From positions 1-5,575 of the IMG/VR virus record IMGVR_UViG_3300045988_000304: a DNA stretch of 5,575 nucleotides; one strand, 5' to 3'. The notes under the pieces were generated by a model. The model saw only the letters and a program-made list of their open reading frames with translations. It did no database searches and was not told the DNA's origin. The translations under genes were made by a program, and so were the position numbers. The stretch's first letter is position 1. Each line of letters starts with the position of its first letter. This document shows positions 2,105-5,575 of this stretch, one piece after another. Source of the stretch: a virus.

Positions 2105-3124
2105 ATGGGATGCAATAAACCGTTAATCCGGTTTTATGTACCTCATGACAGGGAGGCGAGTGGGCGAGTATACTCACTCGCCTCTTTTAACGAGATGCAT
2201 AAGACAAACCTTAGATACGAAGATCTAATGTACAGAAAAGATGTAATGTTGATACCATGCGGACAATGTACCGGATGTAGACTACGCAAACGAAAAGACT
2301 GGTCAACGCGAATGGAACTAGAAGCATACGGACACAGCAAAGAAACCATCTGGTTTATTACACTAACTTATGACGATGACCATGTACCGACACAGGACAC
2401 CGAAACAGGCGAAATCTATAAAGGCGGCATAAACATCTGGAAAGGCGTCTCAGAGCGTCCAAGAACAGCGCAAACTCTAAGCGTAGAGGATACCCAACTA
2501 TTTATAAAAAGGCTCAGAAAGGCCGTCAAAGAGCCTCTGAGATACTTTTTAGCGGGAGAGTACGGAGACAACACAGCGAGACCACACTATCACATGATAC
2601 TATATGGTTGGCATCCGGACGACTTAAAACCAATCCACAAACTGTCAAGACATGGTCATTATACAAGCGATAAGCTAGTAAAAATCTGGGGACAAGGCAC
2701 AGTTGACATCGCACAGGCAACACCAGAAACATATAATTATGTTGCAGGGTATGTGACCAAGAAACTATACGGCAACGACAAAAAGCGTTACCAGAAAATG
2801 GGTTTAATACCACCATTTTGCACCATGAGCCGCAAACCGGGACTCGGAGACAAGTGGTTCGAAGACAATCAAGAACGACTCTGGCAAAAAGGATACATAC
2901 AGCTTACCAACGGCAAGAGAGCAGCCATACCGGAATACTATTGGAGAAAACTGGAAGCTAAAAACCCAGAAAAAGCATGGAGAATCAAGAAATATCGACA
3001 GGGAAAAGCCATAGCGTCCCTAATCGAAAGAAACGCGGAAACCGACAAGCCATACGCAGAACAGTTAAAAGACAAAGAAGCATCCATGTCGAAGAAAATG
3101 AGCAAAGCCAAAGGCGTATTTTGA
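2105..3124 (+). CDS. VP4: replication initiation protein VP4 (HUH rolling-circle endonuclease, phiX174 A analogue)
   Basis: This 339-aa ORF starts 1 nt after the VP2 stop. It has the Cys cluster IPCGQCTGCRLRKRKDW, motif I FITLTYDD, the HUH motif PHYHMILYG (HYH at nt 2585-2593) and the catalytic Tyr motif YVAGYVTKK (nt 2738-2764). Confidence 0.93.
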   Translation: MGCNKPLIRFYVPHDREASGRVYSLASFNEMHKTNLRYEDLMYRKDVMLIPCGQCTGCRLRKRKDWSTRMELEAYGHSKETIWFITLTYDDDHVPTQDTETGEIYKGGINIWKGVSERPRTAQTLSVEDTQLFIKRLRKAVKEPLRYFLAGEYGDNTARPHYHMILYGWHPDDLKPIHKLSRHGHYTSDKLVKIWGQGTVDIAQATPETYNYVAGYVTKKLYGNDKKRYQKMGLIPPFCTMSRKPGLGDKWFEDNQERLWQKGYIQLTNGKRAAIPEYYWRKLEAKNPEKAWRIKKYRQGKAIASLIERNAETDKPYAEQLKDKEASMSKKMSKAKGVF

Positions 3125-3135
3125 CACTTTGGTGT

Positions 3136-3184
3136 CACTCAGCCAAGTAACTATCAAGTAAGCTACTTGGCTGAGTGTTTTATT
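3136..3184 (+). terminator. strong intrinsic terminator after VP4 (probable end of the genome-length transcription unit)
   Basis: CACTCAGCCAAGTAACT (3136-3152) pairs with AGCTACTTGGCTGAGTG (3161-3177). That gives a 17-bp stem with one mismatch and the loop ATCAAGTA, followed by TTTTATT (3178-3184). A small 6-bp hairpin, TGACAC/GTGTCA (3122-3137), overlaps the VP4 stop codon. Confidence 0.75.
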
Positions 3185-3193
3185 GATTTGTTA

Positions 3194-3237
3194 AATGCAC
3201 ACGCGCGCGCACGTAATCGCGCACGCGCACGTGCATT
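3194..3237. repeat. GC-rich imperfect palindrome made of alternating purine/pyrimidine tracts
   Basis: AATGCAC (3194-3200) pairs with GTGCATT (3231-3237), and inner pairs 3203-3207/3224-3228, 3209-3210/3221-3222 and 3212-3213/3218-3219 also form. In total 16 of 20 positions pair around the loop TAAT (3214-3217). Bases 3196-3215 and 3218-3236 are unbroken pyrimidine-purine alternations (TGCACACGCGCGCGCACGTA and CGCGCACGCGCACGTGCAT). Confidence 0.8.
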
Positions 3238-3259
3238 ATATTATTATTTTTATTATTAA
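3235..3259. other. 25-nt pure A/T tract (candidate DNA unwinding element)
   Basis: ATTATATTATTATTTTTATTATTAA contains no G or C from 3235 to 3259. It lies between the GC palindrome and the (TAG)5 repeat. Confidence 0.6.
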
Positions 3260-3266
3260 CTTGTTG

Positions 3267-3281
3267 TAGTAGTAGTAGTAG
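3267..3281 (+). repeat. (TAG)5 perfect trinucleotide repeat (DnaA-trio-like), followed by the G cluster GGAG
   Basis: TAGTAGTAGTAGTAG is read directly at 3267-3281. It is preceded by TTGTTG and followed by GGAG, then by the first TGTTGAA repeat. Confidence 0.9.
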
Positions 3282-3359
3282 GGAGTGTTGAAATGTTGAA
3301 TACTATGAATTTTTATCCTTGGAACGATATTTTTTGGCTAATTTTAATGTTGATACTTT

Positions 3360-3368
3360 TGTGGATAA
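3360..3368 (-). promoter_or_regulatory. DnaA box, perfect match to TTATCCACA
   Basis: The + strand reads TGTGGATAA, so its reverse complement is TTATCCACA, 9/9 to the strict consensus. Confidence 0.6.
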
Positions 3369-3394
3369 CTTGTTGAAATGTTGAAAGTATAGCA

Positions 3395-3403
3395 ATATGC
3401 ACA
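3395..3403 (+). promoter_or_regulatory. DnaA-box-like 9-mer in the opposite orientation, partly inside a hairpin stem
   Basis: ATATGCACA matches TTWTNCACA at 8/9. Bases 3398-3403 belong to the stem of the 3398-3417 hairpin. Confidence 0.35.
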
Positions 3404-3417
3404 AAAACCTTTGTGCA
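3398..3417 (+). other. 8-bp hairpin TGCACAAA / TTTGTGCA with loop AACC
   Basis: This perfect inverted repeat (3398-3405 and 3410-3417) sits between the second and third iteron clusters. Its stem carries the CACA half of two box-like 9-mers. Confidence 0.6.
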
Positions 3418-3420
3418 ACA
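3412..3420 (-). promoter_or_regulatory. DnaA-box-like 9-mer (one mismatch to the relaxed consensus), 3 nt from the 3424 box
   Basis: The + strand reads TGTGCAACA, against the reverse consensus TGTGNAWAA (8/9). Confidence 0.35.
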
Positions 3421-3423
3421 TTT

Positions 3424-3432
3424 TGTGGAAAA
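3424..3432 (-). promoter_or_regulatory. DnaA box, matches the relaxed consensus TTWTNCACA
   Basis: The + strand reads TGTGGAAAA, so its reverse complement is TTTTCCACA (9/9 relaxed, 8/9 strict). It has the same orientation as the 3360 box and the same position within the 33-nt repeat. Confidence 0.55.
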
Positions 3433-3502
3433 CCTGTTGAAAGTGTTGAAAGTGTTGAAAAAGCAAATAAAGGCCGACCGGCGACCGAGAGCGAGAAGCC
3501 AC

Positions 3503-3542
3503 GTCATGCTCTTCGTACGGCGCACCGCGCCTACCGCATGAC
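3503..3542 (+). other. GC-rich nested stem-loop just upstream of the promoter
   Basis: The outer stem pairs GTCATGC (3503-3509) with GCATGAC (3536-3542). The inner stem pairs GTA-C-GGCGC (3515-3523) with GCGCC-TAC (3527-3534) around the loop ACC. No T-run follows on either strand, so this is not a terminator. Confidence 0.6.
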
Positions 3543-3568
3543 CTCAAATAAAAAGTTTAAAAAACCTC

Positions 3569-3597
3569 TTGACAAATCGAAAAATCTGTGGTATAAT
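3569..3597 (+). promoter_or_regulatory. consensus sigma-70/sigma-A promoter with extended -10 and A/T-rich UP-like region
   Basis: TTGACA (3569-3574) and TATAAT (3592-3597) are separated by an exact 17-nt spacer. TG at 3589-3590 gives TGnTATAAT. The A-rich tract CAAATAAAAAGTTTAAAAAACC lies at 3545-3566. Confidence 0.75.
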
Positions 3598-3621
3598 GCA
3601 GATAGTAAAGGAGGTATAAAG

Positions 3622-3801
3622 ATGAATACCATCAATCATCTGAGCATCAAAGCCTTGAAGGAACTGGAAGAAGTAGGTTCCTACGATACCGCAAAATACA
3701 GATACATTATTAACCAGAGCAATGGAGGATGCTACCGCATCAATAAAGAGCTGCTAGGGACAACGGAAGCGCTCAACCCGGAAAATTGGGTGGAACAGTA
3801 A
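3622..3801 (+). CDS. hypothetical 59-aa protein, first gene downstream of the consensus promoter
   Basis: ATG at 3622 lies 7 nt after AAGGAGG (3608-3614), and TAA is at 3799-3801. The product is MNTINHLSIKALKELEEVGSYDTAKYRYIINQSNGGCYRINKELLGTTEALNPENWVEQ. It has no TM segment and no family I recognise. The track's longer form (3397-3801) would have to read through the promoter and the repeats. Confidence 0.6.
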   Translation: MNTINHLSIKALKELEEVGSYDTAKYRYIINQSNGGCYRINKELLGTTEALNPENWVEQ

Positions 3802-4204: not shown

Positions 4205-4307
4205 AGTCCGCAAGTCCAAAGACGCAAAAATTTACAACAAGACCGCACGAAAGACCAAAGCTATTAACTTGGGAAGCGGCGCAATGCGAGGAGGCATCAG
4301 ATTATGA
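4188..4307 (+). CDS. small basic DNA-binding protein (phiX174 J / gokushovirus VP8-like), 39 aa
   Basis: This ORF is below the track's size cut-off. ATG at 4188 lies 8 nt after AGGAG (4175-4179). The product is MGKRNKVRKSKDAKIYNKTARKTKAINLGSGAMRGGIRL, with 13 of 39 residues K or R. Its C-terminal RGGIRL resembles the RGGxR(L/F) ending I recall for small DNA-binding proteins of SpV4 and gokushoviruses. Its stop overlaps the next start (ATGA at 4304-4307). Confidence 0.7.
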   Translation: MGKRNKVRKSKDAKIYNKTARKTKAINLGSGAMRGGIRL

Positions 4308-4543
4308 TTAACGTATATGGTATCTATGACCAGTGTGCTATGTGCTATATTACCACCTTTAACGAGCGCGACGACAAAGTCGCCGAGCGCAATTTTAAGA
4401 TTGCGCTGATGGACGAGCACAACATCATGAGCAAAACGCCGAGCGACTACCGGCTTGTGAGACTCGCAAAGTTTGACGAGCGAAACGGCGATTTTGAGGA
4501 AGCAAAGGAGAATATCTACGATGGCATTTCGATCGGTAAGTAA
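4304..4543 (+). CDS. small conserved microvirus nonstructural protein (VP5-like), 79 aa
   Basis: ATG at 4304 lies 9 nt after GAGGAGG (4288-4294). The product begins MINVYGIYDQCAMCYITTFNERDDKVAERNFKIALMDEH...DYRLVRLAKFDERNGDF. This fits my memory of the ~80-aa protein found just upstream of VP3 in gokushoviruses. The VP5 label is from memory, not from a search. Confidence 0.65.
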   Translation: MINVYGIYDQCAMCYITTFNERDDKVAERNFKIALMDEHNIMSKTPSDYRLVRLAKFDERNGDFEEAKENIYDGISIGK

Positions 4544-5015
4544 TTTCCGCGAGACAGCGGAGGAATGGCAGACCGAAGCCGGCGAAACCGTAAGACGGAC
4601 ATACCTCTGGGAACGAAACGAAAAAGGCGAAAAGGTGCTAAAGCTCGACCAAATCATCGACCAGCAAGCAGAAATCGACAGCTACCTGGAAGAAACCAAG
4701 ATCGAAAACATCATCCGACGGGCAAGCATCGACCCAAACATTGCAGCGCGAATCGCGCCAGACCTTGGCGGAGGCATCCAAGACTTTACCGAGATGCCGC
4801 AGACGCTGGCAGAGCTCCAAAATATCATGATCCGAGCTGAACAGATTTGGGATGAAATACCAAAAGAAGCAAAGCTCAAATTTGACAACGACGTCGATAA
4901 ATTTATCTCGTCGTTTGGTACAGCAGAATGGGCTAAAAATCTGGGAATTTACACCGACGAAAAAACCACAACAGAAGCAACCAAAGCAACCGAAACAACG
5001 GAGGCAACTGAATGA
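4521..5015 (+). CDS. VP3: internal scaffolding protein VP3, 164 aa
   Basis: ATG at 4521 lies 10 nt after AAGGAG (4505-4510), which I prefer over the track's TTG at 4473. The block DFTEMPQTLAELQNIMIRAEQIWDEIPKEAKLKFDNDVDKFISSF matches the conserved core of gokushovirus VP3. It sits immediately upstream of VP1, and its stop overlaps the VP1 start. Confidence 0.8.
   Translation: MAFRSVSNFRETAEEWQTEAGETVRRTYLWERNEKGEKVLKLDQIIDQQAEIDSYLEETKIENIIRRASIDPNIAARIAPDLGGGIQDFTEMPQTLAELQNIMIRAEQIWDEIPKEAKLKFDNDVDKFISSFGTAEWAKNLGIYTDEKTTTEATKATETTEATE
4968..5012 (+). repeat. five imperfect 9-nt (3-codon) tandem repeats encoding the TTE-ATK-ATE-TTE-ATE tail of VP3
   Basis: The sequence reads ACAACAGAA GCAACCAAA GCAACCGAA ACAACGGAG GCAACTGAA. 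The fourth unit contains the GGAGG SD of VP1. Confidence 0.7.
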
Positions 5016-5575
5016 ACAGAAACAAAGACGCGGGATTTAATCAAGTACCAAGACTAAACATCACGCGAAGCCGCTTTAAGCGGCGGCAGGACGTCAAACT
5101 AACAATGAACGCAGGCCAGCTAATCCCGTTTTATGTCGATGAAGTGCTTCCGGGCGATACCTTTAGCATCGACCAAGCGGCGATCATCCGCATGACAACG
5201 CCCATCTTTCCAGTGATGGACAACTGCTACATGGACATCTATTATTTTTTCACTCCTAACCGGATTTTGTGGAAAAACTGGAAACGATTTATGGGCGAAA
5301 ACGACAACGGACCGTGGGCACAGAAGCAAGAATACACCATACCGCAAATCGCATGTAACTACGGGACGGCAGAAAATCCACTGCCAAAAGAAGGAAGCAT
5401 CATGGACTACATGGGCGTCCCAACAAAAGTAAACAAAAGTAAAGAAACAGCATTTTACATAAACGCGCTGCCGTTCCGAGCATATGCAATGATATGGCAA
5501 GAGTGGTTTAGAGACCAAAACATAGATAACCCAGCAATCAACTCAGTAGACGACGCAACAGTGGACTACAGAGAC
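5012..5575 (+). CDS. VP1: major capsid protein VP1 (phiX174 F-like), N-terminal part; runs off the window end and continues at base 1
   Basis: The ATG at 5012 overlaps the VP3 stop (ATGA), with GGAGG at 5000-5004 seven nt upstream. My own translation is open to the window end: MNRNKDAGFNQVPRLNITRSRFKRRQDVKLTMNAGQLIPFYVDEVLPGDTFSIDQAAIIRMTTPIFPVMDNCYMDIYYFFTPNRILWKNWKRFMGEN... This is the conserved N-terminus of Microviridae capsid proteins. It is missing from the ORF track because it has no in-window stop. The frame is continuous with 1-1183 across the 55-nt duplication (5520 is divisible by 3). Confidence 0.95.
   Translation, partial: MNRNKDAGFNQVPRLNITRSRFKRRQDVKLTMNAGQLIPFYVDEVLPGDTFSIDQAAIIRMTTPIFPVMDNCYMDIYYFFTPNRILWKNWKRFMGENDNGPWAQKQEYTIPQIACNYGTAENPLPKEGSIMDYMGVPTKVNKSKETAFYINALPFRAYAMIWQEWFRDQNIDNPAINSVDDATVDYRD
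5521..5575. repeat. 55-nt exact terminal redundancy with bases 1-55 (circular-genome assembly overlap)
   Basis: CATAGATAACCCAGCAATCAACTCAGTAGACGACGCAACAGTGGACTACAGAGAC occurs at both ends of the window and lies inside the VP1 reading frame. Confidence 0.97.

What the first reader, a model, noticed from the sequence alone, without database searches (positions are those of the whole stretch)
3357..3432. Perfect and near-perfect DnaA boxes in the noncoding region of an ssDNA phage
TGTGGATAA (3360-3368) is the exact reverse complement of the DnaA box TTATCCACA. For equal base frequencies, a given 9-mer is expected about 0.04 times in 5.5 kb counting both strands. A second box, TGTGGAAAA (3424-3432, fitting TTWTNCACA), sits at the equivalent position of a 33-nt direct repeat 64 nt away. 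It is paired with a third box-like 9-mer, TGTGCAACA, 3 nt upstream. A fourth, inverted box-like 9-mer, ATATGCACA (3395-3403), lies partly in the stem of the 3398-3417 hairpin. Known Microviridae prime complementary-strand synthesis via PriA-type primosome sites (phiX174) or primase (G4), not via DnaA. However, a DnaA box inside an ssDNA hairpin is known to nucleate the DnaA-dependent ABC primosome (Masai and Arai work on plasmid single-strand initiation signals). These boxes could also regulate the downstream promoter or titrate host DnaA.
Basis: partly seen in the sequence, partly recalled or inferred. Interest (0 to 1): 0.75.

Follow-up and report, generated by a model that had tools for sequence, protein, structure and literature searches.

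The report
Host-like replication origin inside a microvirus
The flagged "DnaA boxes" are two of about ten to twelve host-type DnaA-binding sites in a compact copy of a bacterial chromosome-origin unwinding module, matching the origin of gut Ruminococcus and carried by a tiny single-stranded DNA gut phage and over 100 of its relatives; no report of such an element in a virus of this family was found.

Summary
In detail: all four 9-mers sit at the stated coordinates and are enriched.

**What the boxes are.** They are variants of an iteron, TGTTGAAA(A). In relatives whose VP4 is about 55% identical, the "perfect" box reads TGTTGAAAA.

**Match to the host origin.** In Ruminococcus genomes this iteron (TTTTCAACA) is the commonest 9-mer of the dnaA–dnaN spacer, that is, of oriC. 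About 80 nt upstream of the boxes the phage also has:
- a 25-nt pure A/T tract
- (TAG)5
- GGAG
- two tandem boxes

This is the architecture and polarity of the bacterial origin "basal unwinding system" (DnaA-trios), and it is 88-94% identical to the Ruminococcus version.

**Distribution.** The whole ~225-nt cassette (3235-3461) is present in 108 microvirus contigs whose VP4 is about 29-100% identical. It is more conserved than VP4 DNA. It is inverted in 13 contigs and relocated in one lineage. A separate lineage builds it from canonical TGTGGATAA boxes. As ssDNA it is unstructured.

**Best reading.** It is a portable oriC mimic that recruits host DnaA to the double-stranded replicative form to open the DNA. 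The ssDNA-hairpin primosome idea is not supported. No prior report was found. All function is inferred, not tested.

The parts
3235..3259 (.). 25-nt tract of pure A/T; candidate DNA unwinding element (DUE), on the side of the trios away from the boxes
   Evidence: Read directly. An AT-rich tract holds the same position in Ruminococcus oriC and in C. difficile oriC2, where the DUE follows the trio (PMC7561715).
3258..3266 (+). AACTTGTTG, a phage-specific string immediately 5' of the trios; function unknown
   Evidence: Present in every TGTTGAAA-dialect relative shown (with 1-nt variants: TACTTGTTG in the VP4~35% lineage, AAGTTGTTG in L106). Absent from host oriC and from the canonical-box lineage L156/L158/L217.
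3267..3281 (+). (TAG)5, i.e. five perfect DnaA-trios (3'-GAT-5' read on this strand)
   Evidence: Ruminococcus oriC has (TAG)3-6 at the same place. Trio consensus 3'-GAT-5' from PMC8287927.
3282..3285 (+). GGAG, the short GC spacer between trios and boxes
   Evidence: Hosts have GGGG or GGGC. C. difficile has a GC cluster (CACC on the other strand) before its trio.
3286..3301 (+). Proximal tandem DnaA boxes, TGTTGAAA and TGTTGAAT (TTWTNCACA-type orientation on the minus strand)
   Evidence: Window 3266-3307, which spans the trios, the GC spacer and these two boxes, is 88-94% identical to the corresponding oriC segment of Ruminococcus loci L100, L094, L099, L086 and L095.
3348..3387 (+).
   Evidence: The wider segment 3340-3470, which holds both distal clusters, is about 77-87% identical in relatives whose VP4 is only ~55% identical.
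3360..3368 (-).
   Evidence: TGTGGATAA in 32/43 close-clade sequences; TGTTGAAAA in 13/17 distant-clade sequences.
3398..3417 (+).
   Evidence: The left arm and box 4 are not conserved in the distant clade, where an unrelated CGTCAnnnTGACG hairpin sits instead.
3412..3420 (+).
   Evidence: TGTGCAA is kept in 41/43 close-clade and 14/17 distant-clade sequences.
3424..3461 (+).
   Evidence: The 24-nt core TGTKGAAAACCTGTTGAAANTGTK recurs in Ruminococcus oriC.
3194..3237 (.). GC-rich alternating purine/pyrimidine inverted repeat abutting the A/T tract; it flanks the cassette and its role is unknown
   Evidence: region 3125-3240 folds with z = -6.19. Kept next to VP4 in most relatives; replaced by a different inverted repeat (GTGGGCCTAATC...GATTAGGCCCAC) in a sub-group (L103, L111, L112, L114, L120).

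Best explanation
Window 3235-3461 is a compact, portable, virus-borne version of a bacterial chromosomal origin unwinding module (oriC 'basal unwinding system', BUS). Its dialect matches the DnaA of Ruminococcus-like Clostridia, which are the probable hosts.

Proposed mechanism, acting on the double-stranded replicative form:
1. Host DnaA-ATP fills the two distal clusters of four boxes.
2. DnaA binds the proximal tandem boxes at 3286-3301.
3. DnaA oligomerises across the GGAG spacer onto the (TAG)5 trios.
4. This melts the adjacent 25-nt A/T tract.
5. The opened DNA gives the host helicase-loading and priming machinery access to the phage genome. The result is DnaA-dependent replication of the duplex form, alongside VP4 rolling-circle replication.

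Titration of DnaA away from the host origin would be a side effect.

Shown here: the architecture, its identity with host oriC, its conservation, and its independence of orientation and position. Inferred only: DnaA binding, unwinding, helicase loading and any contribution to phage replication.
For: 1. **The motif is the host oriC box.** Scanning 185,579 species genomes for the 24-nt core gave 21 loci. Only 2 are microvirus contigs; most of the others are Ruminococcus or other Clostridia contigs, and about nine of them carry 9-30 boxes, mostly clustered within ~1-1.5 kb.
2. **Location in the host.** In L086 and L095 the cluster lies between dnaA (Pfam Bac_DnaA 6e-63 plus Bac_DnaA_C) and dnaN, with rnpA/yidC upstream in L086 and recF downstream in L095. 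TTTTCAACA is the top non-homopolymer 9-mer there (17 and 20 copies), against 1 and 0 canonical TTATCCACA.
3. **The phage has the full BUS layout.** It reads A/T tract, (TAG)5, GGAG, two tandem boxes. This is near-identical to the host (for example L100: (TAG)6-GGGG-TGTTGAAAC-TGTTGAAAA).
4. **It meets the published criteria.** These are at least 3 trios within 16 bp of a box, tandem boxes, and distal boxes (PMC8287927 and PMC6669920). Its polarity matches C. difficile oriC2.
5. **Conservation.** Every VP4-selected relative that extends far enough keeps the box module, and every one inspected upstream keeps the trio element. It occurs in 108 microvirus contigs with VP4 at about 29-100% identity, with a median of 8 boxes on the trio strand and a median of 0 on the other. 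The element is 75% identical to the distant clade, against 67% for VP4 DNA.
6. **Cassette behaviour.** It is inverted in 13/108 contigs and relocated in one lineage.
7. **No ssDNA structure.** z = +0.74, so it most likely acts on dsDNA.
8. **Box dialects.** The proximal box-pair variants in phages mirror those in different Ruminococcus origins. Lineage L156/L158/L217 has the same architecture with canonical TGTGGATAA boxes.
9. **Host DnaA differs where expected.** Ruminococcus DnaA differs at 3 of 5 listed base-contact positions (P423A, T435S, H439Y in E. coli numbering). This fits a variant box.
Against: - No experiment links Ruminococcus DnaA to TTTTCAACA. That it is the DnaA box is inferred from position and copy number.
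- The host assignment rests on this mimicry alone. There is no CRISPR or prophage evidence.
- Microviruses already have a complete rolling-circle system (VP4 is intact), so the need for a DnaA-dependent opening step is unexplained.
- Boxes at 8-9 nt spacing abut or overlap by 1 nt, which is tighter than the 2-bp gaps of the E. coli arrays.
- Trios would not be needed for pure titration, but their conservation might also reflect recent cassette exchange between phages.
- Strong conservation across diverged VP4 could partly be due to horizontal transfer of the cassette among phages.
Confidence: 0.6

Rival explanations
1. DnaA sink or sensor. The cassette only binds and titrates host DnaA on the multicopy replicative form. 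This would shut off or retime host initiation, or couple phage development to the host's DnaA-ATP level. It would not fire as an origin.
For: About 10-12 boxes per genome copy. From general knowledge, DnaA-box clusters such as datA and the B. subtilis inc regions are known to titrate DnaA on multicopy DNA. Independence of orientation and position fits a pure binding site.
Against: Titration needs only boxes. Yet the trios, the GC spacer, the tandem proximal pair and the adjoining A/T tract are kept in every inspected lineage, including the canonical-box lineage. That is the signature of the unwinding function.
Confidence: 0.2
2. On the incoming single strand, a DnaA box held in a hairpin stem nucleates a DnaA-dependent (ABC-type) primosome for complementary-strand synthesis.
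For: In this genome, 3357-3367 can pair with 3396-3406 (11 nt, 91% complementary), which would put box 1 in a duplex. The + strand carries the trios in the ssDNA-binding sense.
Against: The region is not more structured than shuffles (z = +0.74). The pairing partner (box 4) is absent in the distant clade. All boxes are direct repeats, so they cannot pair with one another. The cassette is inverted relative to the genes in 13/108 genomes. The strongly structured ssDNA lies elsewhere, at 3125-3240 (z = -6.19).
Confidence: 0.07
3. The repeats are iterons for a phage protein (VP4 or a small DNA-binding protein) and mark the rolling-circle double-strand origin, as in geminivirus, circovirus or plasmid origins.
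For: Direct repeats flanking a hairpin resemble Rep-binding origins. The origin of gokushoviruses is, to my knowledge, not mapped. A phage-specific AACTTGTTG abuts the trios, and, from memory, the phiX174 nick site is CAACTTG^A.
Against: The same repeats, spacing and trio element fill the host dnaA-dnaN spacer, where no phage protein acts. The iterons are unchanged across VP4 proteins of about 35-100% identity, contrary to Rep-iteron co-variation. A nick-site origin should not be freely invertible. AACTTGTTG is missing in L156/L158/L217.
Confidence: 0.08
4. The sites bind another host regulator that shares origin sites with DnaA, for example Spo0A (0A box TGTCGAA, from memory). This would tie phage replication to sporulation, as in phi29.
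For: TGTTGAA is one mismatch from TGTCGAA. From memory, 0A boxes overlap DnaA boxes in B. subtilis oriC.
Against: There is no exact TGTCGAA or TGNCGAA in the intergenic region (only one in the genome, at 3087 inside VP4). The trio architecture is specific to DnaA.
Confidence: 0.03

Closest known systems
Bacterial oriC basal unwinding system (B. subtilis incC boxes 6/7 plus DnaA-trios; C. difficile oriC2; the Ruminococcus dnaA-dnaN spacer found here)
   Same: Tandem DnaA boxes, a short GC spacer, at least 3 trios of 3'-GAT-5', then an AT-rich unwinding tract, plus distal box clusters. The polarity is the same, and the trio-to-box segment is 88-94% identical to Ruminococcus oriC.
   Different: It sits on a 5.6-kb ssDNA phage genome, not next to dnaA/dnaN. 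It is compressed to ~225 bp, against ~1.5 kb with about 20 boxes in the host. All its boxes lie on one strand. It is invertible and relocatable between genes. It coexists with an HUH rolling-circle initiator.
DnaA boxes in plasmid and phage theta origins (P1 oriR, pSC101, F, R6K, RK2; from general knowledge)
   Same: A mobile replicon recruits host DnaA through DnaA boxes.
   Different: In those origins DnaA assists a plasmid-encoded Rep bound to its own iterons. No DnaA-trio/BUS element is described for them. Here no theta-type Rep is encoded, and the 'iterons' are themselves the DnaA boxes.
DnaA-dependent ABC primosome at the 'A site' single-strand initiation signal
   Same: A DnaA box is used by a replicon that passes through an ssDNA stage.
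   Different: It requires the box to sit in a hairpin stem on ssDNA. Here there is no conserved hairpin, the region is unstructured, and its orientation varies.
DnaA-titrating box clusters (E. coli datA; B. subtilis DnaA-box clusters and inc regions; from general knowledge)
   Same: A dense array of DnaA boxes on DNA that can reach high copy number.
   Different: Those lack an adjacent trio/DUE unwinding unit.
phiX174 and G4 origins (the 30-bp gpA origin; the PriA n' site; the G4 primase origin; from general knowledge)
   Same: Cis-acting replication signals in the noncoding DNA of Microviridae.
   Different: None of them involves DnaA. They are strand-specific, and the complementary-strand signals are structured ssDNA.

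Membership tests
oriC basal unwinding system (BUS) | One or, commonly, two tandem DnaA boxes matching the species-specific consensus | tested here: met
   3286-3301 is TGTTGAAA-TGTTGAAT. The same motif is the dominant 9-mer of Ruminococcus dnaA-dnaN spacers.
oriC basal unwinding system (BUS) | At least 3 DnaA-trios (3'-NAN-5', consensus 3'-GAT-5') within 16 bp of the box, on the strand and side seen in characterised origins | tested here: met
   (TAG)5 at 3267-3281, 4 nt from the box. Criteria from PMC8287927. Polarity equals C. difficile 5'-CACC-CTACTACTATTACTACTA-3' followed by the DUE.
oriC basal unwinding system (BUS) | A GC-rich spacer between box and trios, and an AT-rich unwinding tract beyond the trios | tested here: met
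   GGAG at 3282-3285. 3235-3259 is 25/25 A/T. Host equivalents are shown.
oriC basal unwinding system (BUS) | Distal DnaA-box subregion that raises local DnaA concentration | tested here: met
   Two four-box clusters at 3348-3387 and 3412-3461. The concept is from PMC6669920.
oriC basal unwinding system (BUS) | Chromosomal location adjacent to dnaA/dnaN | tested here: not met
   The element lies between VP4 and small phage ORFs in a microvirus. It is therefore an oriC-like module, not an oriC.
oriC basal unwinding system (BUS) | DnaA-ATP binding and box- and trio-dependent strand separation | not testable with these tools
   Needs purified host DnaA and an unwinding assay.
Canonical (E. coli-type) high-affinity DnaA box, TTATCCACA | Exact 9-mer, maintained by selection | tested here: not met
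   Exact at 3360-3368. However it reads TGTTGAAAA in 13/17 distant relatives and is canonical in none of the 17. It also varies within the close clade: 32/43 are canonical, and 7 TGTGGAAAA, 2 TGTTGAAAA, 1 TGTAGATAA and 1 TGTGGACAA are not.
ABC-primosome single-strand initiation signal | DnaA box held double-stranded in a stable, conserved ssDNA hairpin | tested here: not met
   z = +0.74 for 3230-3470. The box1/box4 pairing is confined to the close clade. The cassette is inverted in 13/108 genomes.
Rep-iteron rolling-circle origin | Iterons co-vary with the cognate Rep and are strand-fixed relative to the nick site | tested here: not met
   The iterons are invariant across VP4 of ~35-100% identity. 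The cassette is invertible and identical in type to host oriC.

The most novel reading that the evidence does not exclude
These gut gokushoviruses use a captured host-type origin in one of two ways. Either they maintain and copy their double-stranded form as a DnaA-dependent 'minichromosome', giving a plasmid-like carrier state without an integrase. Or they let host DnaA melt the duplex so that the HUH protein VP4 can nick it. Either would be a replication mode not described for any ssDNA virus. The origin 'dialect' would then also serve as a sequence-only predictor of host range for uncultured microviruses.
Probability: 0.25. Interest if true: 0.92.

Novelty: new variant of a known kind. Interest (0 to 1): 0.85.

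Why it matters
1. **Replication biology.** Microvirus replication is textbook rolling-circle biology with no role for DnaA. A conserved, portable oriC-type unwinding module in more than 100 gut microviruses implies an unrecognised dependence on, or manipulation of, the host initiator.
2. **Host prediction.** It gives a concrete, testable host assignment (Ruminococcus-like Clostridia) for a widespread human and animal gut gokushovirus group that has no cultured host. It also suggests a general rule: match the phage's box and trio dialect to bacterial oriC.
3. **A minimal natural BUS.** It provides a natural ~225-bp test case for the DnaA-trio unwinding model outside a chromosome.
4. **A variant DnaA box.** It points to a variant DnaA box (TTTTCAACA) with matching changes at DnaA base-contact residues in Ruminococcus.
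5. **Persistence.** It may help explain the long-term persistence of gut microviruses.

Tried and rejected
- **Literature searches.** Gokushovirus+DnaA gave 0 papers. Microviridae+oriC/DnaA box returned nothing relevant in the 15 listed. Microviridae+DnaA gave 19 papers, none relevant by title or abstract among the 15 listed. DnaA-trio+phage and gokushovirus+Ruminococcus found no report. The library is partial, so absence is not proof.
- **Sequence-string search.** Searching TTTTCAACA/TGTTGAAAA returned only unrelated primer hits.
- **Plasmids.** The PLSDB collection has no match to 3230-3470.
- **Spo0A-box reading.** Rejected: there is no TGNCGAA in the intergenic region.
- **AACTTGTTG as a VP4 nick site.** It has a phiX-like AACTTG, but only 6 nt match and it is absent in the canonical-box lineage. 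Kept as speculation.
- **Circularising the window.** Joining the ends to rebuild VP1 failed: the frame hits a stop ~25 nt before the end. I therefore used only the C-terminal VP1 ORF.
- **Large non-microvirus 'viral' contigs with the signature.** Most have isolated matches. L218 (142-kb contig) has a full BUS plus about 16 boxes, but its genes gave little annotation, so it was not pursued.
- **Assembly chimera.** Rejected: the cassette is at a conserved position in more than 100 independent contigs and in GenBank records from several studies.

Full report
**1. Observation**

The window is a gokushovirus-type microvirus. Its gene map is below.

| Feature | Coordinates | Evidence |
|---|---|---|
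| Capsid VP1, C-terminal part | 41-1183 | Pfam Phage_F, 1e-98 |
| VP2 | 1225-2103 | ORF; VP2 annotated over the matching stretch of related GenBank records |
| Rolling-circle initiator VP4 | 2105-3124 | REP_ORF2-G2P |
| Noncoding region, ~500 nt | 3125-~3620 | no credible ORF |
| ORF5 | 4304-4543 | Phage_ORF5 |
| Chp2-type scaffold | 4473-5015 | Chlamy_scaf |

The nearest GenBank records are gut Gokushovirinae from human, pig and monkey faeces, at 80-88% identity over parts of the genome.

TTWTNCACA occurs 4 times against 0.52 expected, and 0 of 200 shuffles reach 4. The hairpin at 3398-3417 is real. The direct repeat 64 nt apart is real, at 22 nt and 91% identity.

**2. What the boxes are**

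The region is dominated by a short iteron, TGTTGAAA. It occurs 6 times in 3125-3620 and nowhere else in the genome. With the degenerate form TGTKGAWA there are 13 hits against 0.79 expected. Nine of them lie in 3286-3460, all on the + strand.

I retrieved relatives through the VP4 protein only, so the noncoding DNA played no part in selecting them. This gave 80 loci in two tiers: VP4 86-97% identical, and VP4 about 55% identical. Every locus that extends far enough (61) has the module. The DNA identity is about 77-87% even in the 55% tier.

In the alignment:

|---|---|---|
| Box 1, TGTGGATAA | 32 canonical | 0 canonical; 13 read TGTTGAAAA |
| Box 2, TGTGGAAAA | 36 | 2; 14 read TGTTGAAAA |
| Box 4, ATATGCACA | 41 | absent |
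| Box 3, TGTGCAAC | 41 | 14 keep TGTGCAA |

Box 3 is the degenerate first repeat of the second half-cluster. The flagged boxes are therefore G-variants of the iteron. The anatomy is two clusters of four repeats each:
- starts at 3348, 3360, 3371 and 3379
- starts at 3412, 3424, 3435, 3444 and 3453 (3412 being the degenerate one)
- a spacer between them

**3. Where else the motif occurs**

I scanned one genome per bacterial species for the 24-nt core TGTKGAAAACCTGTTGAAANTGTK. This returned 21 loci. Only two are microvirus contigs. Most of the others are Ruminococcus or other Clostridia contigs of up to 275 kb. About nine of them carry 9-30 copies of the box, mostly clustered within about 1-1.5 kb; the others have only 1-6.

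In L086 (a Ruminococcus flavefaciens MAG) the gene order is yidC, rnpA, then dnaA, the box array and dnaN. In L095 it is dnaA, the box array, dnaN and recF. Pfam supports each gene call. That array is the chromosomal origin.

Unbiased 9-mer counts in those two spacers put TTTTCAACA first among non-homopolymers, with 17 and 20 copies. The canonical TTATCCACA occurs 1 and 0 times.

The DnaA proteins of five such loci share A, S and Y at the positions equivalent to E. coli P423, T435 and H439. D433 and H434 are kept (the shared GGRDH motif). R399 appears to be kept as well, read by eye from the L086 protein. The list of base-contact residues comes from PMC7561715. I mapped the positions by fixed spacing from the GGRDH motif, which is an inference.

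**4. The decisive extra piece**

A second phage segment, 3266-3307, matched the same oriC loci at 88-94% identity. Side by side:

| Source | Trios | Spacer | Tandem boxes |
|---|---|---|---|
| Phage | (TAG)5 | GGAG | TGTTGAAA-TGTTGAAT |
| L100 | (TAG)6 | GGGG | TGTTGAAAC-TGTTGAAAA |
| L086, L099 | (TAG)5 | GGGC | TGTGGAAAA-GTTGAAA |
| L095 | (TAG)3 | GGGG | TGTTGAAAG-TGTTGAAAA |

In every case an AT-rich tract precedes the trios. In L086, L095 and L094, whose fetched DNA includes dnaN, the unit lies at the dnaN end of the array.

This matches the published basal unwinding system. The definition calls for a DnaA box, often a tandem pair, within 16 bp of at least 3 DnaA-trios of consensus 3'-GAT-5'. 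These elements are necessary and sufficient for DnaA-dependent strand separation. Distal boxes raise the local DnaA concentration (PMC8287927 and PMC6669920).

The polarity also agrees with C. difficile oriC2, which reads boxes, GC cluster, 5'-CTACTACTATTACTACTA-3', then the unwinding element. The phage minus strand reads box-box-CTCC-(CTA)5-A/T.

**5. Conservation and behaviour**

- Every relative inspected upstream of the box cluster keeps TAG-nnG-TAG-TAG-TAG (or all-TAG), a 4-5-nt spacer and two boxes.
Of these, 108 are microviruses with VP4 about 29-100% identical to this one.
- The cassette always has 3-10 boxes (median 8) on the trio strand within 260 nt, and a median of 0 on the other strand.
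- It is co-oriented with the genes in 95 contigs and inverted as a unit in 13. In one lineage it sits on the other side of VP4.
- Against the distant clade, the 224-nt element is 75% identical. The adjacent essential VP4 gene is 67% identical.
- The proximal box-pair variants found in phages include exactly those of different Ruminococcus origins.
- A separate lineage (L156, L158, L217) has the same architecture written in canonical boxes: (TAG)6-7, GCAT, TGTGGAAATGTGGAAA, then 4-5 copies of TGTGGATAA.
- As single-stranded DNA, 3230-3470 is no more structured than shuffles (z = +0.74). The neighbouring 3125-3240 is strongly structured (z = -6.19).

**6. Mechanism**

The best-supported reading is a portable oriC mimic that works on the double-stranded replicative form:
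1. DnaA fills the distal clusters and the proximal pair.
2. DnaA extends onto the trios.
3. This opens the 25-nt A/T tract.
4. The opened DNA gives host helicase-loading and priming proteins access.

Trio conservation argues for unwinding and against mere titration. Independence of orientation and position, together with the lack of ssDNA structure, argues for action on dsDNA. Identity with host oriC, and invariance across very different VP4 proteins, argues against a phage-protein iteron.

Every functional step is inference; nothing here tests binding or unwinding.

**7. Comparison and novelty**

The element works like, and is built like, a chromosomal BUS. It fails only the criterion of chromosomal location. 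I therefore describe it as an oriC-like module, not as an oriC.

DnaA boxes are known in plasmid and phage theta origins. To my knowledge those act with a plasmid Rep and have no trios.

I found no paper connecting Microviridae, or any phage, with DnaA-trios or an oriC-type module. The matching GenBank records carry no origin or repeat annotation there: either no feature, or the end of VP4 or a 'hypothetical protein' CDS overlapping the match. PLSDB plasmids have no match.

Noticed in passing
window 3125-3240: Two very stable hairpins; the ssDNA fold has z = -6.19. Hairpin A (3136-3177) has 17-nt arms followed by TTTTATTG, so it looks like a terminator right after the VP4 stop codon. Hairpin B (3194-3237) is an alternating purine/pyrimidine CACGCGCGCGCACG inverted repeat, prone to Z-DNA or cruciform formation, and it abuts the A/T tract. 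Either could be the complementary-strand origin or the VP4 origin.
   Followed up: partly
window 3258-3266 (also 3367-3375): AACTTGTTG lies immediately 5' of the trios in all TGTTGAAA-dialect phages shown (with 1-nt variants in two lineages). It is absent from host oriC and from the canonical-box lineage. It contains AACTTG, as does the phiX174 gpA nick site (CAACTTG^A, from memory). It could be a VP4 nick site placed next to DnaA-opened DNA, but the evidence is weak.
   Followed up: partly
L081, L086, L095, L099, L100 (Ruminococcus dnaA loci): These genomes appear to use a variant DnaA box, TTTTCAACA. Their DnaA carries A, S and Y at E. coli positions P423, T435 and H439. This would be a lineage-specific change of origin recognition, not described in the papers I could search.
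   Followed up: partly
L156, L158, L217 (4.65-4.72-kb microvirus contigs): A different microvirus lineage has the same trio-plus-box cassette built from canonical TGTGGATAA boxes. This implies a different host and suggests that oriC mimicry is a wider microvirus trait. The cassette sequence has partial matches (73-97% identity over 20-88% of it) in KT264804 and several rodent-faeces microviruses; only KT264804 is covered over most of its length.
   Followed up: partly
L218 10960-11360 (end of the 142-kb viral contig IMGVR_UViG_3300029692_000002); L194 2315-2461 (140-kb contig): Large non-microvirus 'viral' contigs also carry a trio/box signature. L218 has A/T-TAGTAGTAGTAG-GTGG-TGTTGAAAG-TGTGGAAAA plus about 16 boxes in both orientations, with no dnaA or dnaN nearby. 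It may be a large Ruminococcus phage with an oriC-like origin, or host contamination.
   Followed up: partly
L063/L104, L076/L205, L079/L147 and 9 other contigs: The whole cassette is flipped between GC-rich flanks (CGCGCACGCGCG-type on both sides). This suggests inversion by recombination between flanking inverted GC-rich repeats.
   Followed up: partly
window 3569-3597: A perfect sigma-70 promoter with extended -10 (TTGACA, 17 nt, TGgTATAAT; 12/12 matches). It lies upstream of a 59-aa ORF (3622-3801), which has no family match. This is typical of Firmicute-style strong promoters.
   Followed up: no
window ends (5550-5575 / 1-41): The window does not close in frame as a circle. The VP1 reading frame meets a stop ~25 nt before the window end when wrapped. 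The window is probably a few tens of nt short of the full genome; the relative L010/L186 with an identical module is 5617 nt.
   Followed up: partly
L090, L092, L099 (genome contigs): Microvirus contigs are binned into Prevotella and Bacteroides MAGs. A contig whose dnaA is Ruminococcus-type (85% identical to the L086 dnaA) is labelled Alistipes. These are likely binning errors, so MAG labels are unsafe as host evidence.
   Followed up: no
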